Source of the DNA: Treponema sp.
Lineage (GTDB): Bacteria > Spirochaetota > Spirochaetia > Treponematales > Treponemataceae
Assembly (NCBI GenBank): GCA_045627625.1
Contig: JAZQOB010000124.1
Location: 1,505 to 65,504 of the forward strand
DNA length: 64,000 nt
Direction of reading: 5' to 3'
The translations under genes were made by a program, and so were the position numbers. Positions 11,011-63,488 of this stretch are shown one piece after another. The notes beneath the pieces were generated by a model, which was not told where the DNA came from, did not search any database, and saw only the letters and a list, made by a program, of their open reading frames with translations. The first letter of the stretch is position 1, and each line of letters opens with the position of its first letter.

Positions 11011-11478
11011 TTAAAAATGCTGTGTTTTTGGTGGAATTGGATTTCCATCAAAGTTTTTAATTCCTGATAATATAATCTGTCTTAGTTCTGAAACCTCTAC
11101 AAAAAATCTTGCACGAGTTCCTTCTCTATTGAAAGAAATCTTTACATTCTGTGGTAAAGGTCGTGAATTAATAGTAATTGTTCTTCCGTTCAAACTCTGA
11201 GGATTTACTGGTCCAGAAAAATGAATATCAATCTGGTATCCTTCTCCCCAGGCTTCTGCATCAATAGAAAGAATTGATACTGGAATATTTTCATCTTCTG
11301 AAAGTTTCCTCTGTCCCCTGAAAGGTTTTGAATCAGGTCGTTCAGGTCTTGGAGAAGATTCAGATTCTGGTCGTGGAGAAGGAGCAGGTCCTTGTCCCGG
11401 ACGAGTTGGTCTTACCTGACCTGATAAAGCCGAAAGAGAAAACAAAATTACTAATATAGAAAAGATAGTCTTTTTCAT
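11011..11478 (-). CDS. Secreted Pro-rich protein with Ig-like C-terminal domain, first gene of the TCS operon
   Basis: Signal peptide, Pro/Arg/Ser-rich linker and IHFSGPVNPQSL (Big_5-like). Confidence 0.6.
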   Translation of the reverse strand: MKKTIFSILVILFSLSALSGQVRPTRPGQGPAPSPRPESESSPRPERPDSKPFRGQRKLSEDENIPVSILSIDAEAWGEGYQIDIHFSGPVNPQSLNGRTITINSRPLPQNVKISFNREGTRARFFVEVSELRQIILSGIKNFDGNPIPPKTQHF

Positions 11479-11527
11479 TACTTATAGTATAAATCATATA
11501 AAAAGTTTTTTTCAATGTTTTTAAATA

Positions 11528-11565
11528 TAAGAATATTCTTATTTTTTTCTTAGGAAAGATTCATG
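11528..11565. promoter_or_regulatory. Putative response-regulator binding site
   Basis: Perfect palindrome TAAGAATATTCTTA (11528-11541) and TTCTTA direct repeats 11 bp apart (11536, 11547), in the divergent intergenic region. Confidence 0.45.
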
Positions 11566-11644
11566 AACTGGGTTTGGGTTTGCATTATAGTTAGTATAGA
11601 AATCGGGAGAGGTGATTTCAAAAAATAGTTTTTAGGAGATAACT

Positions 11645-12469
11645 ATGAAACAGACAAAAAAGATTTTACTTTCAGTATTTATGGCAGCATTATCAGGAAG
11701 TGCAGTATCACTTTTTGCAGATACTAGTTCAATTAATTTTACATCAGCACAGGGTTTTACAAATACAACTGGTTATGTAGCTGAAGTTAAAGCTTTCCGC
11801 CCAGAAAGTGACAGAAAAACCACAACTACTACAACCACAACAACTACCACTACTACAGTAACAAAAGAAAAAGGTAATGGTAAAAAAGAAGTAAAACCAG
11901 GAAATGGATACGGAAGAGATAAAAACAAATCGGATGATGAGGATGAAATTTGCTTCTGCGGAAAAAAACATGGCAAAGGTGTATCTCATGGATATGGTCA
12001 TGGACATGAAAAACCTTCAAAACCAGAAACAAAGCCATGTGATAAGCCAACTGTAAAACCTGGAACAAAACCATGTGATAAGCCAGCTGTAAAACCTGGA
12101 ACAAAACCATGTGACAAACCAGCTAAACCAGAAGCTAAACCACAGGTAAAACCTTTTAAGCCAGAAACAAAGCCTGCAGTAACACCTGCTAAACCTGAAC
12201 CAAAACCTCAGGTTAAGCCAGGAGCTCCAAAGCCACAGGTAAAGCCTGAAGCACCTAAACCACAGGTTAAACCTGAAGCTCCAAAACCTGAATTTAAACC
12301 TGCTCGTCCTGAAGTAAAACCTACTCCAAAACCTGCAGATCCTAAAAAACCAGGAGCTCCAGATGATGATGACGATGAATGGTGGAAAAAACACAATGGT
12401 AGAAGACACATGAAAAATGGTGATTCTATTCCTGCTGAAATCATCATCGATTCAAGAGTTAAAAAATAA
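11645..12469 (+). CDS. Secreted low-complexity Pro/Lys repeat protein with His/Cys patch
   Basis: RBS aggag, signal peptide, poly-Thr, CFCGKKHGKGVSHGYGHGH, KPCDKP x3 and KPQVKP repeats. Confidence 0.8.
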   Translation: MKQTKKILLSVFMAALSGSAVSLFADTSSINFTSAQGFTNTTGYVAEVKAFRPESDRKTTTTTTTTTTTTTVTKEKGNGKKEVKPGNGYGRDKNKSDDEDEICFCGKKHGKGVSHGYGHGHEKPSKPETKPCDKPTVKPGTKPCDKPAVKPGTKPCDKPAKPEAKPQVKPFKPETKPAVTPAKPEPKPQVKPGAPKPQVKPEAPKPQVKPEAPKPEFKPARPEVKPTPKPADPKKPGAPDDDDDEWWKKHNGRRHMKNGDSIPAEIIIDSRVKK

Positions 12470-12487
12470 TTAATTCTTGTTAAACTA

Positions 12488-12524
12488 AAAAAGGGATGTC
12501 TTTGGAAACAAGGCATCCCTTTTT
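12488..12524. terminator. Bidirectional terminator
   Basis: aaaaagggatg...catcccttttt between convergent genes. Confidence 0.8.
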
Positions 12525-12541
12525 AGTCTTTATTTATAAGA

Positions 12542-13474
12542 TTAATCTGCAAACAATGGAGTAGAAAGGTAGCGGTCTCCTGTATCTGGGAGAATTACTA
12601 CAATGTTCTTTCCTTTGAATTCTGGGCGTTTTGCAACTTCAATGGCAGCCCAAACTGCAGCCCCTGCCGAAATACCAACAAGAATTCCTTCTTTCTTGCC
12701 AATTAATTTTCCTGTGGCAAAAGCATCTTCGTTTTCTACAGGAATAATTTCGTCATAAATTTTTGTATCAAGAATATCTGGAACAAAGCCTGCTCCAATT
12801 CCCTGAATTTTATGTGGACCTGCAACTCCTGTTGAAAGTACGGCAGAAGATTTTGGTTCAACTGCAATAACTTTAACATCTGGATTTTTAGATTTAAGGT
12901 ATGTTCCAATTCCTGTAATTGTACCACCAGTTCCAACACCAGCCACAATTGCATCTACTTTACCGTCTGTATCTTCGTAAATTTCTGGTCCTGTAGTTTC
13001 GATATGAGCTTTTGGATTAGAAGGATTTACAAACTGTCCTGGAATAAAGCTGTTTGGAATAGAAGCAGCCAGTTCTTCAGCTTTTGCAATTGCACCTTTC
13101 ATGCCTTTTGCACCTTCTGACAAAACTAATTCAGCACCATATGCCTTCATAATCTGGCGGCGTTCAACGGACATTGTATCTGGCATAACAATAATACATC
13201 TGTAACCTTTGGCGGCAGCAACCGAAGCAAGACCAATACCTGTGTTACCTGAAGTTGGTTCAATAATTACTGAATCGCTTTTTAATTTTCCTGCTGCTTC
13301 TGCATCATCCAGCATCTTTTTTGCAATGCGGTCTTTAATGCTTCCCGCTGGATTAAAATATTCAACCTTTGCAATTACTTTTGCTCCAAGATTGAATTCC
13401 TTTTCGATGTTGGAAAGTTCAAGAAGTGGTGTGTGACCAATAAGCTGATCTGCTGATGTATAAATGTTTGCCAT
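12542..13474 (-). CDS. cysK: Cysteine synthase A
   Basis: NPAGSIKDR (PLP lysine), [15 protein letters not shown] and HKIQGIG. Confidence 0.97.
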
Positions 13475-13520
13475 AATTTGTTTGTGTAAGAATGAATCTT
13501 ACTTTCCTCCGTTTTGTTAT

Positions 13521-13575
13521 AACCTAGCAAACTAGTAGGCAATGTATTTATATAATTTATTTTACATGTTGTCAA
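13521..13575 (-). promoter_or_regulatory. cysK promoter with putative Rrf2 operator
   Basis: TTGACA on the minus strand (13570-13575); operator-like AACCTAGCAAACTAGTAGGCAAT at 13521-13543. Confidence 0.65.
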
Positions 13576-13591
13576 TTAAATTTCAAAAAAG

Positions 13592-14170
13592 TTATTTTCT
13601 TTTACTGATTGAAACTCCATCGCCAAATGGATAGAAGGTAGTTTCGAATTCTTCGTTAGCTTTTAAAAAAGCAATGTACTTCTGAATTTTCTTTACCAGC
13701 TTTTTTGTACTGTAGTTGTGAGTAAGGCTTAAGTCTTCTACCATGCCATGAAAACTTAAGTTGTCACTGAAAATCACACCTTCAGGCGAAAGATTATTTT
13801 TGTATTTTTCAAAGAATTTAATGTACTGAGCTTTTGCGGCATCAATAAAGATTAAATCAAAAGTGCCTTCAAGTTCGCAGGTCAAAGCATCTGCATTAAT
13901 AAGAGTGATACGGTCCGAAAGCCCGCAATCATTTACATTCTGTCGTGCCTGAATGTGTCGGTCGATATCAATTTCTATAGAAGTAACCTGAATATCTGGG
14001 CCTGCTTTTGCAAATTTAATTGTTGAATAACCAATGGCAGTTCCAATTTCAAGAATTCTTTTAACATTGTGTTCTTTAATATATTCGAGCATAAAGTCAA
14101 TTCCGTCTTCCTGCATAATAGGGACAGAGTTCTTTCGTGCAAAGGTTTTTATGTCTTTTTCTTCTTCCAT
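13592..14170 (-). CDS. SAM-dependent O-methyltransferase (TrmR/YrrM-like)
   Basis: ILEIGTAIGYS, FIDAAKAQY and SDN motifs. Confidence 0.88.
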   Translation of the reverse strand: MEEEKDIKTFARKNSVPIMQEDGIDFMLEYIKEHNVKRILEIGTAIGYSTIKFAKAGPDIQVTSIEIDIDRHIQARQNVNDCGLSDRITLINADALTCELEGTFDLIFIDAAKAQYIKFFEKYKNNLSPEGVIFSDNLSFHGMVEDLSLTHNYSTKKLVKKIQKYIAFLKANEEFETTFYPFGDGVSISKRK

Positions 14171-14271
14171 AGTGATTTGATTATATAGAAAAAAGAGAGT
14201 TTAGACAAAAGAAAAAAAGCATTCTTGCATAAGCGTTTTTTTTCACTATAATTAATAAAAGAGGAAAAAAT

Positions 14272-14436: not shown

Positions 14437-14439
14437 TTT

Positions 14440-15175: not shown

Positions 15176-16378
15176 ATGAATTTACTTAAAAAAATCTATT
15201 GTCGTACATTTCAGTTTTGTTTTAAGGTTGCTATTCCAGTATTACCTTATCGTCAGCCAGTTTTAATTGACGGTTTTGAAGGCCTTCCAGAAGTTCTTCG
15301 AAAAGAAAAAAAATCCAGACTCATTATTGTTACTGATAAATCTATTGCAGGTCTTGGTTTATTAGATGGATTAAAAAATATTCTTTCGAACAATAATTTT
15401 GATTTCTGTGTTTATGACGGAACTGTTCCTAATCCTACAACTGAAAATGTTGAAGAAGCACTCAAGCTTTACAAAGAAAATAATTGTGATGCTATTATTG
15501 GTTTTGGTGGTGGTTCTTCCATGGATTGTGCTAAGGCGTTAGGTGTTAGAGTTGCCCGCCCTCATACAAGTCTTGGTAAAGTAAAAGGTATTCTTAAAGT
15601 ATTTAAAAAACTTCCTTTACTTATCGCCGTTCCAACTACAGCCGGAACAGGAAGCGAAACTACTCTTGCCGCTGTTATTCGAGATCCTGTTACTACTGAA
15701 AAATATGCAATTAATGATTTCCCATTGATTCCTCGTTATGCAGTTATGGAACCAAGAATTACTCTGTCCCTTCCTGCAAAAATTACTTCAACTACAGGAA
15801 TGGATGCTTTGACTCATGCGGTTGAAGCTTTTATTGGTGGTTCTACAACTAAAAAAACAAGAGACTGTTCATTAGAAGCGGTTAAATTGATTTTTGAAAA
15901 TCTTGATGAAGCAGTATTCAACGGAACAAATGTAGATGCACGAAAAAATATGCTGCAGGCTTCTTTCTTTGCAGGCTGTGCCTTTACTGTTTCTTATGTT
16001 GGATATGTTCACGCAATTGCTCATTCTTTGGGTGGAAAATACAATGTTCCTCATGGTCTGGCAAATGCAATTATTCTTCCTGTTATACTTAAGGCTTACG
16101 GAAAAAAGGCCTGGAAGAAGCTTGCCATTCTTTCTAAAGTTGCAGGAGTTTCTTCTGAATCTGCCAGTGACGAAGTTGCTGCTAAAGAATTTATAAAAGC
16201 AATTGAAGAAAAGAACGAAAAATACGGCATTGGAAAAAGCTTTGCAGAAATCAAAAAAGAAGATATTCCATTTATGTCTCGTCATGCAGATAAAGAAGCA
16301 AATCCTTTGTATCCTGTTCCTGTTTTGTGGAATGCCAAGGAACTGGAACATTTTTACCTTGAATTAATGGAATCTTAA
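15176..16378 (+). CDS. Iron-containing alcohol dehydrogenase
   Basis: GGGSSMD, PTTAGTGSE, GMDALTHAVE, HAIAH and PHG. Confidence 0.95.
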   Translation: MNLLKKIYCRTFQFCFKVAIPVLPYRQPVLIDGFEGLPEVLRKEKKSRLIIVTDKSIAGLGLLDGLKNILSNNNFDFCVYDGTVPNPTTENVEEALKLYKENNCDAIIGFGGGSSMDCAKALGVRVARPHTSLGKVKGILKVFKKLPLLIAVPTTAGTGSETTLAAVIRDPVTTEKYAINDFPLIPRYAVMEPRITLSLPAKITSTTGMDALTHAVEAFIGGSTTKKTRDCSLEAVKLIFENLDEAVFNGTNVDARKNMLQASFFAGCAFTVSYVGYVHAIAHSLGGKYNVPHGLANAIILPVILKAYGKKAWKKLAILSKVAGVSSESASDEVAAKEFIKAIEEKNEKYGIGKSFAEIKKEDIPFMSRHADKEANPLYPVPVLWNAKELEHFYLELMES

Positions 16379-17795: not shown

Positions 17796-17849
17796 AAAAA
17801 ATTGTTTTCCTCTGTCCCCTTTGTGTTATAATTATTTACGAGGTGAATA

Positions 17850-18575: not shown

Positions 18576-18600
18576 GAATTAAAAATTAAGAATTAAGTAT

Positions 18601-23661: not shown

Positions 23662-24490
23662 AAATCTTCTCTGTATTTGTAACTAATTCCTTGTAAATTC
23701 TGGTGTTGTAGCGTTTTGCAGACTGATAGGCACCATAAATATCTACGATATAAAGAATGGCACCGCAAGTTCCGTAAGCATAAGGTCGCCAGCTTTTCCA
23801 TTCAGTTTTAATTCCGGAATAAACACAGGCACTTGCAAAAGAACTGATTGTAAGGAAAGAAGAAACTCCCTGGGCAAAAGAACTGGTGTACCATTTTCCT
23901 GCTCCTGGACAAATCATAGAAAGAAAAAGTGCAAGTCCTGGTGATTTAGTTTTGTAATCTGATAAATAAAGGGACAGAGGAGAAAAAATCAAATTGTCTT
24001 CGGTTGCGCTCTGTGCCTTTGTTCTGGCATCTGTAATGTTGTTTGCAAGAACCAGCTGTGAAATATCAACAATATTGTGAAAATCCAGGGAAAACTTATC
24101 TGCATTTTGACCTAATGTCTGCTGAAAATCATTGAAGGCCTCTGCATCCTGTGTATGAAGCAGCAGTTTACTTTTTGTAAGAGAAACTTTTTCCAGTGCA
24201 AAAGGGGACAGAGACAAATTGAAATTATCAAAAATCCAGCTGTTGCCTGCCATATCATTTTTCTGATCGTAAATGCTGTTTAAGGTAAGAACTGCATTTT
24301 CATCAATGATTACACCGGCGGTAAAAAGGTATCTGCGGAATTCACTTTCGGCTTCATCATAAAAACCTGTCTGGTATAAATCAAAGGCAAATTCCTTGAT
24401 GAGGTCTGGACTAAAGGCATTTGGGGCTTTTTGACCAAAACATGGAAGTGCAAAAACAGCCGCAATAAATATATAGATAATTTTTTTCAT
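23645..24490 (-). CDS. Secreted TPR-like protein with TM2-like hairpin (paralog of neighbour)
   Basis: EAESEFRRYLF and KSPGLALFLSMICPGAGKWY. Confidence 0.7.
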   Translation of the reverse strand: MKKIIYIFIAAVFALPCFGQKAPNAFSPDLIKEFAFDLYQTGFYDEAESEFRRYLFTAGVIIDENAVLTLNSIYDQKNDMAGNSWIFDNFNLSLSPFALEKVSLTKSKLLLHTQDAEAFNDFQQTLGQNADKFSLDFHNIVDISQLVLANNITDARTKAQSATEDNLIFSPLSLYLSDYKTKSPGLALFLSMICPGAGKWYTSSFAQGVSSFLTISSFASACVYSGIKTEWKSWRPYAYGTCGAILYIVDIYGAYQSAKRYNTRIYKELVTNTEKIYEALY

Positions 24491-24503: not shown

Positions 24504-25520
24504 TTATTTTACAGGATCAACATGTTTTCCGTTTTTGTTGGTATCGTAAAGATTTGCATTATGTTCTGTTGGATTACAGCGTTTTAATCGTTCCAATCCC
24601 ATGATTAAACCTGCAGGTCCGTATTTTGAAATTGCCTGAAGCATATACTGGGAACAGGTTGGTTCAAATGGGCAGGCAGAATTATCCTGTTTTGTAACAA
24701 ATTTTTTGTAGCCTTTGTAGGCAATATTTGTAATGACTGAAGAAAGGGAAACTCGGAACACTGGGGACAGAGGAGAAATTGCAAGTACAACAGGATTCTT
24801 TATTCCATTGATTTCGTTGGATTTTGCAGGGCTGGAATTATCTGCCTGATATTCAGAGTAGGCATCTTCAATCTGATTAATTTTAATTTTCGAAAATTTA
24901 AGAATTGTACAAATGTAAGGTTTTCCATTTGTATAAGTTTGAGATTCTATTGTTGTAGGAACTGTGTAGCCGGTGATTTTAGTAAAATCCGAAAGTTTTG
25001 TTTCGGTATACAATTCACCACTTGCAAGATACATTTTAAGGTTTGTAAAGTTACCTTTTGAATCGGTAGTAACAAGAACTTTTTCGATGGCATGGGCACC
25101 GTTTCTAAAATATTGCCATTCTGTAACTACAAGGCCGTCTTCCACCGTTGAGATTGCAGGGGCATAACCAGAATCTCCAAGTCCCATGTCGCTTTTGAAC
25201 CAGGTAAGAATATCTACGCAAGTTTGATTTAAAATACTTCTTCCCTGGGTAAAATCATAAATTCCGGTGGAGTCCTTAAAAAAAGTTCCATCGGAATTTA
25301 TGTAGTTCACCTGATTTTCAGGTTTGAGAATATTGAAAACAAAAAAGTAGGGATTATTTTTGTAGTAAAGGTTTCCGGAGATTGCATTTTTTTGCCCCGC
25401 CCCATTAATTTCAACCCTTTCAAAATCCAGTTGAAGTTTGCGGATAGTTTTAGATTGACTAAAGCAGGCGGTGCAAAGAAAAAGTAGAAATAAACCCTCT
25501 AAAAAAATCGACTTTTTCAT
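24504..25520 (-). CDS. Secreted LolA-like domain fused to YidD (membrane protein insertion efficiency factor) domain
   Basis: C-terminal YKKFV..CPFEPTCSQY..AISKYG..LERLKRCNP is the YidD signature. The N-terminal part has a signal peptide and a beta-rich domain; the LolA-like call is tentative. Confidence 0.7.
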   Translation of the reverse strand: MKKSIFLEGLFLLFLCTACFSQSKTIRKLQLDFERVEINGAGQKNAISGNLYYKNNPYFFVFNILKPENQVNYINSDGTFFKDSTGIYDFTQGRSILNQTCVDILTWFKSDMGLGDSGYAPAISTVEDGLVVTEWQYFRNGAHAIEKVLVTTDSKGNFTNLKMYLASGELYTETKLSDFTKITGYTVPTTIESQTYTNGKPYICTILKFSKIKINQIEDAYSEYQADNSSPAKSNEINGIKNPVVLAISPLSPVFRVSLSSVITNIAYKGYKKFVTKQDNSACPFEPTCSQYMLQAISKYGPAGLIMGLERLKRCNPTEHNANLYDTNKNGKHVDPVK

Positions 25521-26046: not shown

Positions 26047-27261
26047 ATGAATAGATTCACCAAAAATCAGATAATCTTATTTGTATTACTCATATTATCG
26101 GCAAGTTGTTTTGCTCAGCAGAAAAAAAATTTAAAAGTTCCTCCGCAAAATATTGTGATTAAAGCTCGTCCTCAGGGAGATGGCTTTGATATGTATGTAA
26201 AAAAAACAGCCGATATTAATTCAATTTTGCTTACTGAATCGGTTCGAGATTATGCGGGAAACAACGACAGCTATGCCTACCGAGCAACAGAATACAACGA
26301 AATTAATGGTGATGAAATTCGCTATTTAAATGGCCAGATTTTAACTTCGGATTGGGCAAAGTTCAGTCTGGTGGATTCTACTCCCGAGAAAACTCCTTAT
26401 TTTGAAGAAGAAGCTTTCCATATTTTTATTCCTCTTAAGCTGGTTTTTGGTTATACCTGGGCAAGACAGGGGCAGGTGGAAGTTGGAAACCGGACTTTTA
26501 TAAATATTCGTGCCTTTGAAAAAAAATATGCAGATCATTCTGGTGAATATGATGACAGTCCTTATTATTTGAATCTGAAAGTTGTAGAAAAAACTAAAAA
26601 TGATTCAATGGGGACAGAGGAAAAAGTTGAACCAAAGGGGACAGAGGAAAAAAAGACAATTCCTCCTCACGAAAGCATTTATAACGAAACTGCCACAGAA
26701 AAACTGGCGGAAATTTCGGAAGAGATTATTTTTTGCAAAGGTCCGTCTGCTTTAGTTGGGGATATTGAAAAAGTTCTGGAACGAACAGAAAATAAGGATA
26801 AGCTGGATGTAATTTTTGCTATTGATGGCACCGGCAGTATGGAAGATGATCTTTATGCCCTTAAGCATGAACTGGTTCCTGCCATGAAGCAGCTGTTTGA
26901 AGGAAGTGGGGCTCAATTTGGACTTTTGTATTATCGGGATTATGATGAATATGTGTCCGGGGCCTACAAAGAACTTCCTGTTCATATTTTTGATTTTGAT
27001 AAAGATTTGAATAATTTTACAATGAATTTGAATTCAATTACTGCTTATGGTGGCGGAGATACTCCCGAAGCGGTTTACGAAGCAATTTTTGCTGCAACAG
27101 AAGGTTTTGATTGGCGTGAAGGAAGTGAAAGAAGAATTATTCTGATTGGTGATGCAGAACCTCACCCTGAACCAAGAGGCACAGGGCTTTATTCAAAAGA
27201 ATATGTAATGAACCTTGCTTCGCAAAAAGGAATCAAAGTCACTACAATTCTTTTACCATAG
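26047..27261 (+). CDS. Secreted von Willebrand factor A domain protein
   Basis: DGTGSM MIDAS, YRDY, GGGDTPE and IGDAEPH. Confidence 0.88.
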   Translation: MNRFTKNQIILFVLLILSASCFAQQKKNLKVPPQNIVIKARPQGDGFDMYVKKTADINSILLTESVRDYAGNNDSYAYRATEYNEINGDEIRYLNGQILTSDWAKFSLVDSTPEKTPYFEEEAFHIFIPLKLVFGYTWARQGQVEVGNRTFINIRAFEKKYADHSGEYDDSPYYLNLKVVEKTKNDSMGTEEKVEPKGTEEKKTIPPHESIYNETATEKLAEISEEIIFCKGPSALVGDIEKVLERTENKDKLDVIFAIDGTGSMEDDLYALKHELVPAMKQLFEGSGAQFGLLYYRDYDEYVSGAYKELPVHIFDFDKDLNNFTMNLNSITAYGGGDTPEAVYEAIFAATEGFDWREGSERRIILIGDAEPHPEPRGTGLYSKEYVMNLASQKGIKVTTILLP

Positions 27262-41776: not shown

Positions 41777-41845
41777 ATTAAGAATGAAAAATTGGGGACA
41801 GAGGAAAAATTTTAATTTTGTGGTAAAATGGGTTCAGGAGCTTTT

Positions 41846-46118: not shown

Positions 46119-46245
46119 TTCATTTGGGACAGAGGAAAATATTCAAATAATTGAAAGATTAGAAAAAAAACACTATCATATTGAAGTATTTTAATTTCAG
46201 AAAGTAACACATCATTTTTTTTATAAGGGATTGGAGGAATCAATT

Positions 46246-53414: not shown

Positions 53415-53514
53415 AATACTAATATTATAGTGGATAATTCTGGAAAAACAAGTTGAAAGTTATTTGCAGGACTTATTGACCGCTTTTTATATTTTTCCTC
53501 TGTCCCCAATGAAT

Positions 53515-55143
53515 CTATTTCAGCTTTTTTGCTATTTCCTGGCAGCAGTTTTCTCCGTCCATAGCACTGGAAACAATTCCTCCTGAATATCCGCTGCCTT
53601 CTCCGGCCGGATAGAGGTTTTTAATTCCGATGGATTCAAAAGTTCCTCTGTCCCTCATGATTCTTACAGGAGTACTTGTTCTGGTTTCGATAGCAATCAT
53701 CAGTGCTTCATCACAAATAAAGCCATGCATGTTTTTATCGATATTCTTAAAGCCTTGAGCGAGTCTGGAACTGATGTGTTTTGGAAGCCATGCGTTTAAA
53801 TTTGATGAAACAAGGCCTGGTGTGTAACTGCTTTCCGGGAGGAACAGAGACAACTTATTATCAAGAAAATCTTTTAATCTTTGAGCAGGTGCCTGCTGTA
53901 AATTTCCATTTGATTTTGCAGTCTGTTCCATGTTAGTTCTGAAAAGAAGTCCTGCAAGTGCTGGACAATTAAGTTTTTCTGCTGCTTTCACAAATTCAGA
54001 AGGAATATCTTCTGGTCTGATTTCAACAACTATAGCTGCATTTGACCATTTTGAATTTCGAGCGGCAGCAGACATTCCATTTACAACAATTTCATCAGGT
54101 CCGGAAGATGAAGGAACAACAAATCCTCCTGGACACATACAGAAAGAATATACACCTCGTTCTTCAACTTGAGTTGTTACTCGATATTCAGCGGTAGGAA
54201 GATTTGCATCGACTTTTCCATGATATTGGATTGCATCAATAAGCTGTCTTGGATGTTCAACACGAACTCCGGCGGCAAAAGTTTTTGCTTCAAGAGTTTC
54301 TGGGCTGTATTTTGCAACTAATTCATAAATATCTGATGCAGAATGCCCTGTTGCAAGAAGAACTGCATCTGCAGTGAAGGAGGTTTCAAAGTTACTCTGT
54401 CCCCCTTGATTCTTTCTAACAGTTTTTACACCAGTAATTTTGATTTTTCCATCTGAATCTTCTTCAGTAATAAAATCAACAACTTTTGTATCAAAGTGAA
54501 TTTCACCACCAAGCTCCAGAATCTTGTCCCTCATATTGTTGATTACTTTTGGAAGTTTGTCTGTTCCGATATGAGGATGAGCATCTGTGAGAATTTTAGG
54601 ATCTGCACCAAAATATGTAAAAATCTGAAGGATCGAATTAATATTTCCTCGCTTATTACTGCGGGTGTAAAGTTTTCCGTCAGAAAAAGTTCCAGCTCCA
54701 CCTTCGCCAAAGCAGTAGTTGCTGTCACTATTAACAATTTTTTGAGTACTGATTAAAGCAATATCTTTTCTTCTCTGTGAAGTTTCGGATCCTCGTTCAA
54801 GGATGATTGGTTTTATTCCTGATTCAAGAAGTTTTAATGCTCCAAAGAGTCCTGCAGGTCCGGCACCAACTATGATTACAGATTTTCCAGATTCAGCTTT
54901 TTTCCATACAGGAAGAGCATCTTCTGTGGATTCTGGAGTTTCACCAATGTAAACTTTATATCGCAAATGGAATTTTTGTCTTCCATGTCGTGCATCAATA
55001 GATTTTTTAAGGAATTTAAGGGTCATTTCATTTGGATGAAATAAATAACCTTTTGATGATAATTCACGAATAATTAATTTTTTGATTAGTCCAATATTTT
55101 TTTCTTCTTCAGGTTTTACGGTAATTGTTATCTCTGTATTCAT
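53515..55143 (-). CDS. FAD-dependent oxidoreductase (uncharacterised COG2509 type)
   Basis: GAGPAG, GEGGAGTFSDGKL, SFCMCPGG and GEGSGYSGGI. Confidence 0.92.
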   Translation of the reverse strand: MNTEITITVKPEEEKNIGLIKKLIIRELSSKGYLFHPNEMTLKFLKKSIDARHGRQKFHLRYKVYIGETPESTEDALPVWKKAESGKSVIIVGAGPAGLFGALKLLESGIKPIILERGSETSQRRKDIALISTQKIVNSDSNYCFGEGGAGTFSDGKLYTRSNKRGNINSILQIFTYFGADPKILTDAHPHIGTDKLPKVINNMRDKILELGGEIHFDTKVVDFITEEDSDGKIKITGVKTVRKNQGGQSNFETSFTADAVLLATGHSASDIYELVAKYSPETLEAKTFAAGVRVEHPRQLIDAIQYHGKVDANLPTAEYRVTTQVEERGVYSFCMCPGGFVVPSSSGPDEIVVNGMSAAARNSKWSNAAIVVEIRPEDIPSEFVKAAEKLNCPALAGLLFRTNMEQTAKSNGNLQQAPAQRLKDFLDNKLSLFLPESSYTPGLVSSNLNAWLPKHISSRLAQGFKNIDKNMHGFICDEALMIAIETRTSTPVRIMRDRGTFESIGIKNLYPAGEGSGYSGGIVSSAMDGENCCQEIAKKLK

Positions 55144-55242
55144 AATTGTGATTATACAATAAAAATAAGAAAATTCTTATAAATTCGGTATTTGAAGAAA
55201 ATTTAATTGACGGATTATAACGAATAATTATAAATTATAATT

Positions 55243-56603: not shown

Positions 56604-56620
56604 TTTTCCTTAAGGTTAGA

Positions 56621-56655
56621 AAAAAAGGATAGTCTCTGGACTATCCTTTTTTTTT
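56621..56655 (+). terminator. Terminator
   Basis: aaaaaaggatagtc/gactatcctttttt stem. Confidence 0.8.
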
Positions 56656-56683
56656 GGTTGGAGTTCGCGGGGGACAGAGGAAA

Positions 56684-56859
56684 AAAACTTGAACCGTCGC
56701 AAAATGAATTGCAGTTGAAGTTAGATTTTTCAGCGACGGTAGGGACAGAGGAAAAATTATAGAAAAACTGCCATAAGTTTTGCAAAGCAAAACTTGAACC
56801 GTCGCAAAATGAATTGCGGTTGAAGCTAGATTTTTCAGCGACGGTAGGGACAGAGGAAA
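56684..56859. repeat. Two 71-bp direct repeats, each a hairpin ending in GGGACAGAGG
   Basis: Copies at 56684-56754 and 56789-56859 differ at 2 positions; internal IR accgtcgc/gcgacggt. Confidence 0.9.
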
Positions 56860-56920
56860 GTTATAAAATCTATCTATTTATCATTGACCTTATATTAAAC
56901 TTCATTATAAAGTAAAAACT

Positions 56921-58323: not shown

Positions 58324-58355
58324 AATTTAAGAAAAGTTTAACGGATGGAGAAAAT

Positions 58356-60515
58356 ATGAAAAAAAATTATGTTATCTGGTTTAGATCTGTTGTTGTTGCG
58401 TTAGTTAGTTTTATTCTTGTAACAGTTTTATATTTTGGAAAAGTTTTCAATATATTTGAGAATAAAACTTATGATCAGCGTATGATTGAAACCTCTAAAT
58501 ATATCCATCCAAATAGTGATATTTCTCTTATAAGTGTCGATCAGGCAAGTATTGATTGGGCAAAGGAAGAATATGGTTGGGGGTGGCCTTGGCCTAGAGA
58601 GGCTTATGGACGAATGATTGAATTTGTTTCAGCGGGAAATGCAAAATCCATAGCTTTCGATATTATATATTCTGACCCATCAATTTATGGTGAAGAAGAC
58701 GATATAACATTAGGTAGATATGAAAAAGACAGTGGAATTGTAATTCAAACAGTTTATGTTTATGAAGAAGAGGATAAAGAGAATTTAGTATTATATCCTG
58801 TTGATCATATTAAGAATAATGCTGCAATGCTTGGAAATATTACTAGTGCTATGGATGATGATGATATTATTCGCCGTGGACGCCTTTATTATGATATCGA
58901 TGGGGACAGATACCCAACATTAGGAACTGCACCTTTATATTTAAATGAGGAAACTGAATATCTTGAAAATCTTCCTGTTTTGAAGGATGGAACTGTTCTT
59001 TTAAGATATCAGCAAAATTTGAATAAATATAATCCGTATAGAGCATGTGATATTCTTAGTTCTTATGATATCTGGAAATCAAATGATACATCCGTTGAAC
59101 CTGTATTTGTTCCAGAAGATTTTGAAGATGGTTATGTTTATGTGGCTTATTATGCTGCAGGACTTTTTGATATCTGTTCAACACCTGTAAGTCAGGTTTT
59201 CCCTGGTGTTGGAGTTCATATTACTACTTTGGATAACTGTCTGTCTGGAAATTTTATTCGAAAAGTTCCTGAAATTATAATTTGCTTGTGGAATATAATT
59301 GTTGCGATTGTCGGAGCATTGGTAGTTGCATTTGCTTCAACCCGTAGAAATCAAAAGCAGACTGTATTATTCCTTTCACTTGGTATATTCATTGGTGGAG
59401 GAATTATTATCGGGCTTCCTTGGCTGTTATTTATTGCAGGGATTTGGTTCAAACTTGTTGCCCCTGCATTTAGTTTCATTCTTTCGTTTATTATTACGCT
59501 TGGAATGACCCTTACAATTGAAGGAAAGCAGAAACGATTCATAAAATCAGCATTTAGTCAGTGTCTTGCTGCTGAAGTTGTAAATAGAATTATTGATGAT
59601 CCGGATTCATTTAAGCTTGGTGGTGAGTATTACAATATGACTGCCATTTTTACTGATATTGAAAAATTTTCAACATTGAGTTCGTTATTAACTCCTCAGC
59701 AACTTGGAAAATTAATCAATGTATATTTGACAAAAATGTCAGATATCATCATGGAAGAGGGTGGCTTAATTGATAAATATGAGGGAGATGCCATTATTGC
59801 AATGGTAGGAGCTCCTGTTTCTTGGGAGGATCATGCGGCTCGAGCTTGTATTGCTGCAATCCGAATTAAAGAAGAAGAGAAAGTTTTAAATGAATCAATT
59901 GCTGAGATCGCAAAAAATCCAAAAGCCTCTGATATGGATCAGGACTTATATGATGCCTATAAGATTCTTAAGGATAATAATAAGCGTATTTATACTCGTA
60001 TAGGTATTAATTCTGGCGAAATGATTGCGGGTTATTTTGGAGCTACATTAAAAAAGAATTATACAATGATGGGGGATAATGTAAATCTTGCTTCTCGTTT
60101 GGAAGGTGTAAATAAGCAGTATCATACATATGGAATTTTGATAAGTGAATCGACTAAGGAAGGAGCTGGGGACAGAGTAATAGTGAGAAAACTGAATAAA
60201 GTCCGAGTTATCAATGTTCCAGAACCAGTTAGATTGTATGAGTTGATGGGTTCAAGGGACAGAGGAGATGAGGCTTTAGTTGATTATGTTGCAGACTGGG
60301 ATTGTGCAATGGAAGCTTTTGAATCAAAAGATTATGAAACTTGTTTGAAACAGATGAAATTATTGAAAAATCGTCGTGCTGATGATTCTGTTGCTGATTA
60401 TTTTATTTATTTATTGGAAAACTATTTTATATTGGGAAAATTTCCAACTGAAACAGACTTGGAAGGTGTTGTTTTTGAGCCAGAGAATTGTGTTTTTGTA
60501 TTGCAGCAGAAATAA
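58356..60515 (+). CDS. CHASE2-domain class III adenylate cyclase
   Basis: CHASE2 (WPWPR, FDIIY, DDIIRR, PGVGVH), TM helices, FTDIEKF, DKYEGDA and NYTMMGDNVNLASRLEG. Confidence 0.93.
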   Translation: MKKNYVIWFRSVVVALVSFILVTVLYFGKVFNIFENKTYDQRMIETSKYIHPNSDISLISVDQASIDWAKEEYGWGWPWPREAYGRMIEFVSAGNAKSIAFDIIYSDPSIYGEEDDITLGRYEKDSGIVIQTVYVYEEEDKENLVLYPVDHIKNNAAMLGNITSAMDDDDIIRRGRLYYDIDGDRYPTLGTAPLYLNEETEYLENLPVLKDGTVLLRYQQNLNKYNPYRACDILSSYDIWKSNDTSVEPVFVPEDFEDGYVYVAYYAAGLFDICSTPVSQVFPGVGVHITTLDNCLSGNFIRKVPEIIICLWNIIVAIVGALVVAFASTRRNQKQTVLFLSLGIFIGGGIIIGLPWLLFIAGIWFKLVAPAFSFILSFIITLGMTLTIEGKQKRFIKSAFSQCLAAEVVNRIIDDPDSFKLGGEYYNMTAIFTDIEKFSTLSSLLTPQQLGKLINVYLTKMSDIIMEEGGLIDKYEGDAIIAMVGAPVSWEDHAARACIAAIRIKEEEKVLNESIAEIAKNPKASDMDQDLYDAYKILKDNNKRIYTRIGINSGEMIAGYFGATLKKNYTMMGDNVNLASRLEGVNKQYHTYGILISESTKEGAGDRVIVRKLNKVRVINVPEPVRLYELMGSRDRGDEALVDYVADWDCAMEAFESKDYETCLKQMKLLKNRRADDSVADYFIYLLENYFILGKFPTETDLEGVVFEPENCVFVLQQK

Positions 60516-60566
60516 CAATTACTAAATATTGACTGAGAATTTAATAACTTGCCAGTTTTTGAGTTT

Positions 60567-61328
60567 TTATGTACAACTCGGATTTGAAAGAAGATAAGAT
60601 TTGACCATTCTTTTTGGCAGGTGCGTTATCCTTGATATTGAATTAATAGAAAATCCATGCTGTCGAATCAATAAAATTTTGGATTTTATAATTTCAGGTG
60701 GTAATTCTTGATTTATAATTGGACTTTTACTATTCAGAATTTCGCAAATTAATTTTGTTTGATTTTCATTTTTTTCAGATGGGCGTAAGGATGGCTCCAT
60801 CCAGGTATCTGTATCATTCTCGTATAAAAACTTGAATAAGTTATTTAAATTTCCAAGTATGTTTATAATTGGTTTTGTATTTACGAAAGAGTGGTTTTTC
60901 TTGATTTCTTTATAATTGCTCCATTTGTACTCATCAAAATTTGAAATACCTGCTTTTTGTGGATTTTTAATTATATATTTAAAAACAGATATGAATGCTT
61001 CGTCGTCTTCAATGGTTTCACTTAGAAAACGCCCTTGAAAAAGATGACCAATTCTATCGTATTTTTTGTTAAAGTATTTTGCATATAGAGAAGAAACAAT
61101 CTGCATAAAAGATGAAATTGTTTTTCCTGGAGCATCAAGTAATAAGTGTATATGATTGCTCATTAGTACATATCCGATTATATCAATTTCATATTTATTT
61201 TTGTATTTTTTCAGTAAATATAAATATTTTTGAAAATCTCCAGAATCATAAAAAATTATTTGCTTATCATTCCCACGATTTATGGCATGATATAATCCTG
61301 TTTGAGAATATTTTCTACATTTTCGCAT
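60567..61328 (-). mobile_element. RAYT-like / IS200-like HUH Y1 transposase with C-terminal HTH
   Basis: YHAINRGN, MSNHIHL (HUH), GHLFQGRF, KYIIKNP (catalytic Tyr) and YKWS. Confidence 0.88.
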
Positions 61329-61477
61329 TTTCTATCTCCTTAAAAATGGTCTATATAAATAATGTTCAATACTTATCAAAAACCGGAAGTTTTTTTGAAG
61401 AAAAATGAAAAATTTTCCTCTGTCCCCGTTGTTTTTCTTTATTGAGAAGAAAAATTATTTATGATATAACTCAAAGT

Positions 61478-61972
61478 ATGAAAGTTGCAATTTTTTTTGG
61501 ATCAAAGTCAGATAAGGATATAATGAAGAAGGCTGCCGATATTCTTTCAGAATTCGGTGTGGATTATAAAGCTTATATTATTTCGGCTCATAGAGCAGGT
61601 GCCTTGTTACATTCAACTGTAGAACAGATTGAAAAAGAAGGTTGTCAGGTTATTATTGCTGGGGCAGGTCTTGCTGCAGCTCTTCCTGGTGTAATTGCGG
61701 GAATTACAACAATACCTGTAATCGGAGTTCCATTAGAGTGTGTTTCTGATAAATCTAATGGTCTGGGTGGAATGGATGCTCTTCTTTCTATCGTTCAGAT
61801 GCCTCCACAGATTCCTGTTGCTACAGTTGGTATAAATAGTTCTAAAAATGCTGCTTATCTTGCATTGCAGATTTTAGCGTTGAATGATAGCGAATTAGCT
61901 GGAAAACTTAGAGAATTCCGTAATAAATTAGCAGAAGATGCAAAAGCTACTGGTTTAGATATAAAATTCTAA
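61478..61972 (+). CDS. purE: N5-CAIR mutase
   Basis: GSKSD, SAHR, AGLAAALPG and SIVQMP. Confidence 0.95.
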   Translation: MKVAIFFGSKSDKDIMKKAADILSEFGVDYKAYIISAHRAGALLHSTVEQIEKEGCQVIIAGAGLAAALPGVIAGITTIPVIGVPLECVSDKSNGLGGMDALLSIVQMPPQIPVATVGINSSKNAAYLALQILALNDSELAGKLREFRNKLAEDAKATGLDIKF

Positions 61973-61994
61973 GTTATTGATTTTATTGAATTGA

Positions 61995-62024
61995 AAGATC
62001 ACCCTTAAAGGTGATCTTTTTTTT
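61995..62024 (+). terminator. Terminator
   Basis: aaagatcacc/ggtgatcttt stem plus T run. Confidence 0.8.
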
Positions 62025-62030
62025 ATTATG

Positions 62031-62090
62031 AATCAATGGGGACAGAGGAAAATATTTTTTATCATAAAAATCAATGGGGACAGAGGAAAA
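62031..62090 (+). repeat. Direct repeat aatcaatggggacagaggaaaa x2
   Basis: Two identical 22-mers 38 bp apart. Confidence 0.85.
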
Positions 62091-62142
62091 ACCATATCCC
62101 CCTAGTTTTCAAATATCTGTTTTTTCTTTATAATGTTTTCGA

Positions 62143-62250
62143 GCGTTAGGGATAGAAAGGGCCGAAGGGCCACCGGAGCCTGAAAGGTGAGGAGGCTGAA
62201 GCGAAAGCGGAACCCTGGATAGCCCGCCGGTTTGGAATCAAACCGAACGC
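62143..62250 (+). ncRNA. Flavo-1-like structured RNA in the purM 5' leader
   Basis: gcgtt/aacgc closing stem, aggg..agccc, and cggttt/aaaccg hairpin; TATAAT at 62129-62134. Confidence 0.55.
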
Positions 62251-62278
62251 CAATATTATATTTTTCAGGAGTGTCCTC

Positions 62279-63373
62279 ATGGCATCTTACAAAGAATCTG
62301 GTGTAGACGTAGAAGAAGGTTATCGCGCAGTAGACAAATATAAGGAACATGCAAAGCGAACTGCAATTCCAGGTCTTTTAACTGGTTTAGGAAGTTTCAA
62401 TGGAATGTTTGAAGTTCCAAAGGGAATCAAAAATCCTGTTATTGTCAGTGGAACTGATGGTGTTGGAACAAAACTTGATATAGCATTCAAAATGAAGAAA
62501 TATGACACTGTAGGTATCGACTGTGTTGCTATGAGTGTAAATGATATTCTCTGTTCTGGTGTTCAGACTTTATTCTTCCTTGATTATGTAGCATGTGGAA
62601 AACTCGATGCAGATGTTGCTGCTGACCTTGTAAAGGGTGTTGCAGATGGTTGTGTTGATACAGGATGTGCTCTTCTTGGTGGTGAAACAGCTGAAATGCC
62701 TGATTTCTATGATGATGGAAAATATGATTTGGCAGGTTTTGGCGTTGGTGTTGGTGAAAAAGATGAAATGATTTCTGGAGAAAACATTAAAGAAGGAGAT
62801 GTTCTTATTGGTCTTTCTTCGACTGGTGTTCATTCAAATGGTTTCAGCCTTGTTCGTAAACTTGTTACTGATTTTAATGATCCATTTATTCTTGATGGAA
62901 AAGATACAGGTAAAACAATTGGTGAAGTTCTTCTTACTCCAACTCGTATTTATGTAAAACCTGTTATGGAAGTTCTTGGAAAATATAGAAAAGCTGTTCA
63001 TGGTATGGTTCATGTTACTGGTGGTGGTTTCTATGAAAATATTCCTAGAATGTATCCTAAAGCAAAAGATGGAAAAAAACAGTTGATTTCTGTTATTAAT
63101 CGCGGTAGTTGGGATATTCCTCCTGTATTTGGTGAATTAATCAAACGTGGTGCAGATTTGAACTCTATTTATAACACTTTCAATATGGGTATCGGTTTTG
63201 TTCTTGCTGTAAATGCAAAAGAAGCTGATGCTGTTCTTGAAATGTTCAATAAGAATGCTTCGAAATATTCAAAAGAAGGAATCCCTGATATGAAAGCATA
63301 TAAAATTGGTCATGTTGAATATGCTAAAGGTGAAGTTTCTTCTCAGAAAGAGGCAGTTCTCTTTGAAGACTAA
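62279..63373 (+). CDS. purM: Phosphoribosylformylglycinamidine cyclo-ligase
   Basis: GTDGVGTK, GGETAEMP, HSNGFSL and FNMGIG. Confidence 0.97.
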   Translation: MASYKESGVDVEEGYRAVDKYKEHAKRTAIPGLLTGLGSFNGMFEVPKGIKNPVIVSGTDGVGTKLDIAFKMKKYDTVGIDCVAMSVNDILCSGVQTLFFLDYVACGKLDADVAADLVKGVADGCVDTGCALLGGETAEMPDFYDDGKYDLAGFGVGVGEKDEMISGENIKEGDVLIGLSSTGVHSNGFSLVRKLVTDFNDPFILDGKDTGKTIGEVLLTPTRIYVKPVMEVLGKYRKAVHGMVHVTGGGFYENIPRMYPKAKDGKKQLISVINRGSWDIPPVFGELIKRGADLNSIYNTFNMGIGFVLAVNAKEADAVLEMFNKNASKYSKEGIPDMKAYKIGHVEYAKGEVSSQKEAVLFED

Positions 63374-63488
63374 TTGAAATAGATTTTATATTTTTAGTGA
63401 AGGGGAAGTGGGATATATCTTGCTTCTCCTTTATTTTTTTTGAACCAATGGGGACAGAGGAATCTTTATTAAAATTACGGGAGAATAT

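What the first reader, a model, noticed from the sequence alone, without database searches (positions are those of the whole stretch)
11308..63460. Highly over-represented dispersed 11-mer GGGGACAGAGG
Seen: 12 exact copies by my reading (+: 24763, 26610, 26637, 41794, 56670, 62038, 62076, 63450; -: 11308, 17809, 53497, 61417). There are also 10-mer copies (23971, 46126, 53645, 56742, 56847, 60256) and many one-mismatch variants. The motif often extends to tcaatGGGGACAGAGGAAAA. A zero-order estimate at ~35% GC gives about 0.004 expected copies. It is non-palindromic, occurs on both strands, and lies both between and inside genes. Inference: either the target or product of the RAYT-like HUH enzyme in this window (from recall, not checked here, GGGG[A/T]CA[G/C] motifs are reported beside this class of Y1 nucleases), or a DNA-uptake-like/Chi-like genome signature.
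Basis: partly seen in the sequence, partly recalled or inferred. Interest (0 to 1): 0.75.

Follow-up and report, generated by a model that had tools for sequence, protein, structure and literature searches.

The report
Transposase stamps motif on neighbouring genes
The repeated 11-letter word piles up within tens of kilobases of a DNA-cutting (TIRYT-type HUH) gene, sits inside ordinary genes mostly as letter changes rather than insertions, and the seven such genes in this genome assembly are surrounded by six different versions of it, so each enzyme likely marks or rewrites its own chromosomal neighbourhood.

Summary
Confirmed: 12 of 12 copies (shuffle mean 0.02). It is not a genome-wide signature: 19 of the genome's 34 copies lie on this contig, densest around the Y1-HUH gene at 60567-61328, a TIRYT-like protein flanked by inverted copies. 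The assembly holds seven such genes surrounded by six different motif variants. Across 338 genus genomes, GGGGACAG is in excess in 33 of 37 with the gene and 5 of 301 without. Density falls from about 12 to 2 per 10 kb over 40-60 kb; a closed chromosome has 23 of 25 copies within 81 kb of its gene. Not found in my literature searches: copies inside housekeeping genes are mostly in-register substitutions (42 of 55 gap-free against orthologues), fill 11 of 14 protein-compatible positions near the gene (0.06 expected), persist far above background, and differ in variant between alleles of one locus. Best reading: a cis-limited nick-and-rejoin enzyme overwrites near-matches around itself (0.45); rival: local uptake-sequence-like drive (0.3). 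Neither is shown; no biochemistry. A predicted ori-mirror cluster failed its pre-stated test. The scan earlier noted local clustering around a TIRYT in another genome (e1-9962265). New variant of a known kind.

The parts
60567..61328 (-). TIRYT-like Y1-HUH nuclease gene, 253 aa: HuH motif H59-I60-H61, Y118-x3-NP, C-terminal helical (HTH-like) extension; holds no GGGACAG
   Evidence: Y1_Tnp E 2.8e-14; best PDB match 4ER8, E 1.9e-7
61417..61427 (-). exact 11-mer 89 bp upstream of the nuclease start codon, pointing to the gene (upstream end of the TIRtron-like unit)
60256..60265 (+). 10-mer GGGACAGAGG about 300 bp downstream of the nuclease gene, inverted relative to 61417, inside the neighbouring ORF 58356-60515; gap-free against the G179 orthologue
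62038..62086 (+). two exact 11-mers (62038, 62076) in a 38-bp tandem pair between purE and purM
63450..63460 (+). exact 11-mer, intergenic, after purM
56670..56860 (+). exact 11-mer (56670) plus two 10-mers (56742, 56847) in a 105-bp tandem duplication between two paralogous gene pairs; G179 has three copies of its own variant at about the same place
53497..53507 (-). exact 11-mer, intergenic
53645..53654 (-). 10-mer inside the FAD-dependent oxidoreductase-like ORF 53515-55143; gap-free against 6 of 6 orthologues (core shared with G179, absent from the other five)
46126..46135 (+). 10-mer (TGGGACAGAGG type) between glgX and glycogen phosphorylase; this gap is shorter in relatives (insertion-like)
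41794..41804 (+). exact 11-mer, intergenic
26610..26647 (+). two exact 11-mers 27 bp apart in a variable linker of ORF 26047-27261 (GTEEK twice); first gapped, second gap-free but unrelated residues in G179
24763..24773 (+). exact 11-mer on the antisense strand of ORF 24504-25520; gap-free against G179 (PLSP vs PLIP)
23971..23980 (+). 10-mer on the antisense strand of ORF 23645-24490 (no orthologue passed the threshold)
17809..17819 (-). exact 11-mer, intergenic, just before a TGnTATAAT-like sequence (seen by eye)
11308..11318 (-). exact 11-mer in ORF 11011-11478, made by synonymous differences only relative to G179 (RGQR in both)
14121..14128 (+). GGGACAGA-GT variant site in ORF 13592-14170, synonymous-only difference from G179; one of about 9 sites of the AGAG[CT] type (the G179/C136 variant) on this contig
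15763..15770 (-). AGAG[CT]-type site in ORF 15176-16378, identical in G179

Best explanation
The word is concentrated around the window's TIRYT-like HUH gene and is likely that enzyme's own recognition and cutting site; the enzyme would act mainly near its own gene and would, by nicking and rejoining single-stranded DNA, copy the motif into gene gaps and overwrite near-matching sequence inside genes. Shown: local density gradient, one variant per paralogue or clade, mostly gap-free substitutions inside genes, strong retention of sites, an inverted pair around most genes. Inferred: recognition by the C-terminal helical domain, cleavage by Tyr118/HuH (by analogy with TnpA-REP), cis preference, repair of a nick with a motif-bearing strand giving a short patch, purifying selection keeping only patches that proteins tolerate, re-conversion of decayed sites, and rearrangements or horizontal tracts carrying blocks of the halo elsewhere.
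For: Cognate link (about 0.9 on its own): excess of GGGGACAG over its reversed control of at least 25 in 33 of 37 genus genomes with the gene and 5 of 301 without; median ratio 4.4 vs 0.83. Variant by locus table in this genome nearly diagonal (chi2 465, df 30); variants follow the protein tree. Gradient: GGGACAG per 10 kb 11.8, 8.5, 7.9, 2.9, 1.9, 2.6, 2.0 at 0-2, 2-5, 5-10, 10-20, 20-30, 30-40, 40-60 kb over 16 stretches of 9 genomes, reversed control 0.3-1.2; 23 of 25 copies within 342-423 kb of a closed 2.63-Mb record whose gene is at 421.9 kb. Syntenic stretches without the gene at this place hold 1-3 GGGACAG in five relatives and 8 in a sixth, against 42 here and 59 in G179, which has a 44%-identical allele in the same place and a different variant. 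In genes: 42 of 55 sites with an empty orthologue are gap-free; 11 of 14 protein-compatible positions within 10 kb carry the 9-mer, 0.06 expected. For active writing: 32 of those 42 gap-free sites involve amino-acid differences and differ by 1-7 of 9 bases; gaps beside sites are commoner than background (13 of 55 vs 3-5%); tandem and inverted doublets in gene gaps and composite dimers in Lachnospiraceae; in two Clostridia contigs 94% identical, the three gene-proximal clusters differ together (GGGTC vs GGTTC) while a distal cluster of the GGGTC contig has the GGTTC form. TnpA-REP cleaves and recombines BIMEs in vitro (PMC3333891, abstract); the model's best PDB match is that enzyme.
Against: No biochemistry and no direct sight of a conversion: strains about 99.5% identical showed no change at a site among the 40 differences listed (820 not shown) and no motif-to-motif joint. 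Near-saturation of compatible positions, retention (20 of 21 sites kept between G179 and C136, background 0.38) and the bimodal mismatch pattern (72 of 105 perfect) fit all-or-none selection just as well. The enzyme's own gene is nearly free of the motif (0 in 29 matched gene stretches; 1 vs 10 expected in full ORFs, but Fisher P 0.14 on compatible positions), which blind writing does not predict without selection. Exceptions: little or no GGGACAG halo at G100:C24 (1 vs 2 control) and G096:C29 (9 vs 9); genome-wide spread of one family in G354 (140 copies) and in G341, where no Y1 gene was found. Cis preference of transposases is recalled, not taken from a call.
Confidence: 0.45

Rival explanations
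1. Local molecular drive. The enzyme recognises the motif but does not write it: sites arise by ordinary point mutation and spread because they help transfer or recombine the segment that carries the enzyme gene (a relaxase-like or uptake-sequence-like mark), so only sites linked to the gene within a recombination-tract length are favoured.
For: In-register, often synonymous substitutions and near-saturation as with uptake sequences (PMC2817400, abstract). Sites kept against synonymous divergence (20 of 21; 15 of 28 vs background 0.17). The gene itself is spared. Divergent alleles (44% identical) sit at the same pur locus, and this assembly holds a second haplotype of the locus (C136) that joins native sequence inside a single-copy gene about 16 kb from the nuclease gene and is 82-95% identical to G179: a tract of halo length. 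The gene is patchy in the genus (37 of 338).
Against: Needs selection strong enough to change amino acids at dozens of sites each; does not by itself explain tandem/inverted doublets, composite dimers or the raised gap rate. The C136 join could be a chimeric assembly. No transfer machinery was examined. No orientation bias towards the gene (242 towards, 233 away).
Confidence: 0.3
2. Ordinary TIRtron repeat family: the motif is the end repeat of the gene unit, copied as small insertions by local hopping; intragenic copies are old in-frame insertions or replacements whose gaps have been lost in alignment.
For: TIR families occurring as singles, dimers and clusters are described (PMC3733652, passages). 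Inverted flanking copies in most loci (25 of 29 upstream, 21 of 29 downstream on the opposite strand). Intergenic copies often sit in longer gaps than in relatives. 13 of 55 intragenic sites are gapped.
Against: Cannot give synonymous-only sites in well conserved proteins (10 of 42; e.g. glycogen phosphorylase, 92-96% identical, YGVEGQRPDV unchanged), nor 11 of 14 and 13 of 15 filling of protein-compatible positions.
Confidence: 0.13
3. Host-selected binding sites: the protein has become a sequence-specific DNA-binding factor (self-repressor, local nucleoid organiser, or a sink that holds a harmful nuclease near its gene) and the sites are selected as operators or decoys.
For: A site within 250 bp upstream in 25 of 29 genes; many intergenic copies near promoter-like sequence (seen by eye); all-or-none core; HTH-like C-terminus.
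Against: Catalytic HuH and tyrosine are invariant in 32 aligned relatives; 224 of 475 sites lie inside ORFs; most genus genomes lack the system (301 of 338); variants turn over with the allele.
Confidence: 0.09
4. Genome-wide signature (uptake sequence, Chi/KOPS or HIP1-like), unrelated to the nuclease gene.
For: A weak excess exists away from the genes (28 of 332 compatible positions, 1.7 expected); mild leading-strand tilt in some sets (14+/5- on C124; 36 vs 21 in G039, counted).
Against: 19 of 34 copies on one contig (P 1e-21); several 40-96-kb contigs have none; GGGACAGAGGAA has 70 copies here, 15 in G179 and at most 3 in the other 336 genomes; the tilt is reversed on C61 (30+/22- with negative skew).
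Confidence: 0.03

Closest known systems
TIRYT / TIRtron (Di Nocera et al. 2013, PMC3733652) = TnpA-Y1 subclass 2.1 (Quentin et al. 2018, PMC6006769) = RAYT group 1 (Bertels et al. 2017, PMC5581495)
   Same: Y1-HUH core with Y---NP signature, C-terminal extension, gene flanked by inverted repeats bearing GGGG[AT][CG]A[CG], moderately repeated families in singles, dimers and clusters, different repeats at different paralogues of one genome.
   Different: In the passages seen these repeats are treated as terminal or extragenic elements. A distance-decaying halo of tens of kb, in-register substitution inside housekeeping genes, near-saturation of compatible codons and variant change with the allele at one locus were not found there. 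Fig. 9 and the supplements were not seen.
RAYT/TnpA-REP with REP/BIME/REPIN (PMC3333891, PMC3116915)
   Same: Same fold (best structural match 4ER8); enzyme-specific repeat families; doublets in gene gaps.
   Different: No GTAG-tagged hairpin; REPINs are extragenic and show no departure from random spacing beyond 200 bp (PMC3116915, passages), whereas this motif is local and about half intragenic; intragenic REPs are described as insertions (PMC3733652, passages).
DNA uptake sequences (DUS/USS) of Neisseriaceae and Pasteurellaceae (PMC2817400)
   Same: Short non-palindromic word on both strands that accumulates inside coding sequence and shapes the encoded peptides.
   Different: Uptake sequences number hundreds to thousands over the whole genome, one family per species; here tens of copies per enzyme, centred on the enzyme gene, six variants in one assembly. 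No uptake receptor was tested.
HIP1 of cyanobacteria (PMC13756078, start of abstract in a search listing only)
   Same: Over-represented short word tied to a DNA-acting enzyme.
   Different: HIP1 is palindromic, genome-wide and tied to methylases; this word is non-palindromic, local and tied to an HUH nuclease gene.

Membership tests
TIRYT / TnpA-Y1 subclass 2.1 | Y1-HUH core with HuH motif and class-2 signature Y---NP | tested here: met
   H59-I-H61 and Y118-IIK-N122-P123; H59, H61, Y118, N122 invariant in 32 relatives; Pfam Y1_Tnp; model matches 4ER8 best
TIRYT / TnpA-Y1 subclass 2.1 | C-terminal helix-turn-helix extension | tested here: inconclusive
   Model has four helices at 183-247 with pLDDT about 90; only weak Pfam HTH hits at E<=0.05 (HTH_7 in 5 of 32, HTH_23 in 4 of 32; the window protein Sigma70_r4_2 at E 0.039, below cut-off); no fold match for this part was listed
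TIRYT / TnpA-Y1 subclass 2.1 | Gene flanked by inverted repeats containing GGGG[AT][CG]A[CG] | tested here: met
   Window: 61417 (-) upstream and 60256 (+) downstream; over 29 genes GGGACAG within 250 bp upstream in 25 and on the opposite strand within 350 bp downstream in 21 (same strand in 6). The repeats are short, not long TIRs
TIRYT / TnpA-Y1 subclass 2.1 | Assignment by the published subclass profiles or tree | not testable with these tools
   Profiles and reference sequences of PMC6006769 were not obtained
TIRYT / TnpA-Y1 subclass 2.1 | Enzyme binds, cleaves and rejoins at the repeat | not testable with these tools
   Needs biochemistry; proposed as future work in PMC3733652 (passages)
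REPtron (RAYT with REP/REPIN) | GTAG-tagged hairpin repeats | tested here: not met
   No significant fold in 6 of 6 copies; no GTAG in the consensus; NCBIfam REP_Tyr_transpos 58 bits against cut-off 80
REPtron (RAYT with REP/REPIN) | Extragenic, spread over the genome | tested here: not met
   12 of 26 GGGACAGAGG on C124 in ORFs; local gradient
DNA uptake sequence (DUS/USS) | Hundreds to thousands of copies genome-wide | tested here: not met
   34 copies, 19 on one contig
DNA uptake sequence (DUS/USS) | Accumulates inside coding sequence without insertion | tested here: met
   42 of 55 gap-free; 11 of 14 compatible positions filled near the gene
DNA uptake sequence (DUS/USS) | Preferential uptake through a sequence-specific receptor | not tested
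   No competence genes were searched; needs experiment
Chi / KOPS | Genome-wide and strongly polarised along replichores (definition recalled) | tested here: not met
   Local; both strands used: 13+/10- in the A. noterae halo, 36 leading vs 21 lagging in G039 (counted), opposite tilts on C124 and C61

The most novel reading that the evidence does not exclude
TIRYTs are neighbourhood-marking selfish elements: each enzyme recodes tens of kilobases of flanking housekeeping genes with its private word and uses the marked tract to move itself between strains by homologous recombination, a cis-limited, enzyme-specific counterpart of DNA uptake sequences that replaces whole alleles without transposing.
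Probability: 0.25. Interest if true: 0.9.

Novelty: new variant of a known kind. Interest (0 to 1): 0.68.

Why it matters
Group-1 RAYTs/TIRYTs are a large class of Y1-HUH proteins (14.9% of strains in PMC6006769) whose substrate and job are unknown; REP searches found no targets for them. The halo reads out each enzyme's probable target directly and gives dozens of natural enzyme-motif pairs (six variants in this assembly alone), which makes specificity, cleavage site and cis action testable in vitro and in laboratory strains. If the enzyme does overwrite near-matches, it is a site-directed mutator that alters codons and amino acids of neighbouring housekeeping genes and a possible short-patch editing activity; if the sites are driven by transfer, it is a local version of uptake-sequence drive. 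Either way it explains local codon and k-mer anomalies, and displaced halo blocks record rearrangements and horizontal tracts.

Tried and rejected
1) Genome-wide signature: rejected. 2) Hairpin/REP structure of the window motif: none; no Rfam match in the window. 3) Mirror halo across the replication origin (3D arm pairing or sister forks): seen post hoc in G354 (P 0.002-0.017 over three window sizes) and G039 (P 0.22, 0.04, 0.006) and suggested for G076 (contig order not shown); the test stated beforehand on NZ_CP154629.1 found only 2 copies outside the halo, one 130 kb and one 360 kb from the mirror point, no cluster, and G354's second family is genome-wide (40 of 140 positions not listed). 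Not general; ori-symmetric rearrangements are the likelier cause where it occurs (genes of one G076 contig end map to both arms in relatives). 4) Excision, inversion or polymorphism at sites in read data: none seen; only contigs were available; the joint 53513-63446 in all four runs is explained by the inverted pair just beyond the stretch laid. 5) Close-pair comparison to tell one-step patches from stepwise change: pairs at 97-99% showed almost no site changes and my pattern was too loose; output partly cut; the mismatch distribution does not separate the models, and its one-off class is inflated by the two C61 variants. 6) Orientation towards or away from the gene beyond the flanking pair: none (242 vs 233). 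7) Captured-cassette array: flanking genes are ordinary and syntenic with relatives lacking the gene. 8) Plasmid-borne element: 2 of 72,556 records hit, one of them chromosome-sized. 9) Single-sequence fold failed (pLDDT 38). 10) Low or missing cover of C136 beyond about 23.5 kb in two runs is noted only as a hint, not as proof of absence.


Full report
OBSERVATION. The six 10-mers are present; 4 of the 12 exact copies lie in ORFs and 8 between genes. The core is all-or-none: on the window's contig, GGGGACAGAGGAA has 18 perfect copies and 2 with a mismatch at positions 2-10. Six copies folded show no significant hairpin.

NOT GENOME-WIDE. The window is C124:1505-65504 of a 2.69-Mb, 137-contig assembly, 87% complete, 2.6% contaminated. 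The 11-mer has 34 copies, 19 on C124 (binomial P 1e-21); several contigs of 40-96 kb have none. On C124 the 10-mer density is 9.6, 2.0, 2.0 and 0.9 per 10 kb at 0-10, 10-20, 20-40 and 40-62 kb from the gene at window 60567-61328. A weak excess exists elsewhere (GGGACAG 1.39 vs 0.51 per 10 kb for the reversed control); since contig order is unknown, part of it may be neighbouring halo.

THE GENE. It encodes a 253-aa Y1-HUH protein (Pfam Y1_Tnp; below the NCBIfam RAYT cut-off). HuH (H59, H61) and Y118..N122 are invariant in 32 relatives. The model (pLDDT 89) matches E. coli TnpA-REP best (4ER8) and has a helical C-terminal extension with only weak HTH hits. The closest named relatives are from Treponema metagenome bins, then Bacillota. 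This fits TIRYT/subclass 2.1, for which flanking inverted repeats with GGGG[AT][CG]A[CG] are published (PMC3733652 and PMC6006769, passages). Over 29 such genes, 25 have GGGACAG within 250 bp upstream and 21 have it on the opposite strand within 350 bp downstream, against 6 on the same strand.

ONE VARIANT PER ENZYME. The assembly has seven paralogues. Within about 10 kb of each, six motif classes fall almost on a diagonal (chi2 465, df 30): C124 GGGGACAGAGGA (13, plus 5 of the AGAG[CT] class), C136 GGGACAGAG[CT] (20), C61a GGGACAGCCT (16), C61b GGGACAGACC (19), C32 and C21 TGGGACAGAGGA (6 and 4; these two proteins are each other's closest paralogues, 55%), C129 GGGAC[AG]GGT[CT] (24). I defined the classes after seeing the contexts, so the test describes and does not independently confirm. 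Variants follow the protein tree across genomes. Of 80 loci from other genomes, about 32 have a GGGAC-type word as top-scoring 9-mer family by my count of the printed table; many of the rest are short or distant.

PRESENCE/ABSENCE. In 338 genomes of the genus, 37 have the gene at E<=1e-20. GGGGACAG exceeds its reversed control by at least 25 in 33 of those 37 and in 5 of the other 301; median ratios 4.4 and 0.83; the excess rises with gene number (Spearman 0.52) (counts transcribed by hand; kin are not independent). In five genomes searched with the Pfam family (four of the exceptions plus G076) no full Y1 domain was found in the four exceptions; G341 has 194 copies spread over many contigs.

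HALO. Pooled over 16 gene-bearing stretches of 9 genomes (the 6 own contigs, G179, G076 and others picked for contig length), GGGACAG per 10 kb is 11.8, 8.5, 7.9, 2.9, 1.9, 2.6, 2.0 from 0-2 kb out to 40-60 kb; control 0.3-1.2. In G076, with one gene, density peaks at the gene. On near-closed or closed replicons: 19 of 58 copies within 25 kb in G354, 32 of 58 within 120 kb in G039, and 23 of 25 within 81 kb, all but two of them on one side, in NZ_CP154629.1 (predicted beforehand). Counter-examples: no GGGACAG halo at G100:C24 and G096:C29, and a genome-wide family for G354's second gene.

FILLED AND EMPTY SITES. G179 has the same gene order and a 44%-identical allele at the same place, with 59 GGGACAG of the AGAG[CT]AA type; stretches from six relatives without the gene at this place have 1-3 (five) and 8 (one) (only parts of them are syntenic). 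Codon alignments for the 76 intragenic GGGACAGAG sites of C124, G179 and C136: 14 had no orthologue, 7 were shared by all orthologues; of the other 55, 42 are gap-free against the closest empty orthologue (10 synonymous only; 1-7 of 9 bases differ) and 13 have a gap within three codons, above the 3-5% background (sites shared between the three loci are counted more than once). Examples (output partly cut): window 11308 RGQR unchanged; glycogen phosphorylase YGVEGQRPDV unchanged in G179; GlgX EGDRA in G179 against EGDRP or EGDKP in six others. Within 10 kb of the C124 gene 11 of 14 positions where the protein allows GGGACAGAG carry it (0.06 expected from codon usage), 13 of 15 on C136, 0 of 17 near the C61 genes (which instead fill 13 of 29 for their own 9-mer), 28 of 332 on the 22 largest other contigs; the reversed control has 0 on the six gene-bearing contigs and 3 of 320 elsewhere. 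'Compatible' includes positions made compatible by amino-acid change, which inflates the fractions. Sites persist: 20 of 21 G179 sites are kept in C136 (background 0.38) and 15 of 28 C124 sites in G179 (0.17). Over 27 stretches 224 of 475 dominant-variant sites lie in ORFs, with no orientation bias. The nuclease genes themselves are nearly free of the word (suggestive only).

ALLELE TURNOVER. C136 carries a second copy of the pur/nuclease locus, 71% identical to C124 and 82-95% to G179. Its left part is covered by long 99.7% contigs at the species' depth in two runs, up to a point inside a single-copy gene at about 23.5 kb; beyond it only short low-depth pieces were laid. This reads as a second haplotype with an imported tract of at least 18 kb, or as a chimeric join. 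In two Clostridia contigs 94% identical, the three clusters next to the gene differ together while a distal cluster has the other form.

MECHANISM. Shown: association, locality, specificity, in-register origin of most intragenic copies, retention. Inferred: that the enzyme binds and cuts the word. Two ways to get the pattern remain. (A, 0.45) The enzyme works in cis, nicks near-matches and rejoins or repairs them with motif-bearing DNA, giving doublets in gaps and short patches in genes that purifying selection filters; TnpA-REP cleaves and recombines BIMEs in vitro (PMC3333891, abstract); cis preference of transposases is recalled. (B, 0.3) Sites arise by point mutation and are driven because they help move the linked tract, as uptake sequences are (PMC2817400, abstract) but only near the gene. 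Multi-base, amino-acid-changing sites, raised gap rate, doublets and concerted proximal change favour A; sparing of the gene and long allele-replacing tracts favour B; they are not exclusive. A mirror cluster across the origin, seen post hoc in G354, G039 and perhaps G076, failed the pre-stated test and is best read as rearrangement history.

LITERATURE SEEN. PMC6006769: abstract and passages; PMC3733652: passages (two look-ups); 10.1101/2020.03.09.984088: whole main text (found no such repeats at picocyanobacterial subclass 2.1 genes); PMC5581495: passages; PMC3116915: passages; PMC2817400 and PMC3333891: abstracts; PMC13756078: search listing. Figures and supplements were not seen and could mention local clustering. 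Searches returned no paper that, by title or start of abstract, describes a distance-decaying halo or in-register intragenic copies for these enzymes; most subscription papers are outside the library. Earlier scan notes saw local clustering of a repeat around a TIRYT in another genome (e1-9962265) and TIRtron repeats elsewhere; searches returned nothing.

VERDICT. Real; a member of the TIRYT/TIRtron kind on the features testable here; the local, enzyme-specific recoding of neighbouring genes is a new variant. Interest 0.68.

Noticed in passing
G000:C136:23500-41332 (L296): Second haplotype of the pur/nuclease locus, G179-like (82-95%), joined to native sequence inside a single-copy gene; imported tract of at least 18 kb or chimeric assembly.
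   Followed up: partly
window 55243-61328: Two paralogous gene pairs (55243-56603, 56921-58323; the larger ORFs give weak M48 peptidase hits), ORF 58356-60515 and the nuclease gene form a block that is missing between the oxidoreductase-like gene and purE in G076, G111 and G005 (spacing of BLAST matches).
   Followed up: partly
G354 (1.16-1.50 Mb), G039 (3.11-3.61 Mb), G076:C45 (135-220 kb): Secondary motif clusters far from any cognate gene, roughly at the mirror distance from the origin; G354 has no copy within about 210 kb either side of dnaA. Not seen in NZ_CP154629.1.
   Followed up: yes
G341, many contigs: 194 GGGGACAG copies (GGGGACAGACCCCT type in the stretches read), with tandem arrays, and no Y1 gene found in a 99%-complete assembly.
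   Followed up: partly
L055, L057, L093, L098, L106, L267 and other Bacillota loci: Here the motif sits in the loop of a 5-9-bp outer stem whose sequence differs between loci, or in 60-80-bp composite dimers; one family has lost the GGGAC core (AATGAGTCAC).
   Followed up: partly
NZ_CP154629.1 (L316, L317): A 2.63-Mb record labelled as a plasmid begins with ORFs that look like dnaA, dnaN, recF and gyrB/gyrA (recognised by eye), so it is likely a chromosome; its halo is one-sided and ends about 1 kb after the gene.
   Followed up: partly
window 62126-62265: GC-rich 140-bp stretch upstream of purM; single copy in the genome, no Rfam match.
   Followed up: partly
window 11645-12469: ORF with long Pro/Lys-rich repeats (KPETKP, KPQVKP) and a Thr run.
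   Followed up: no
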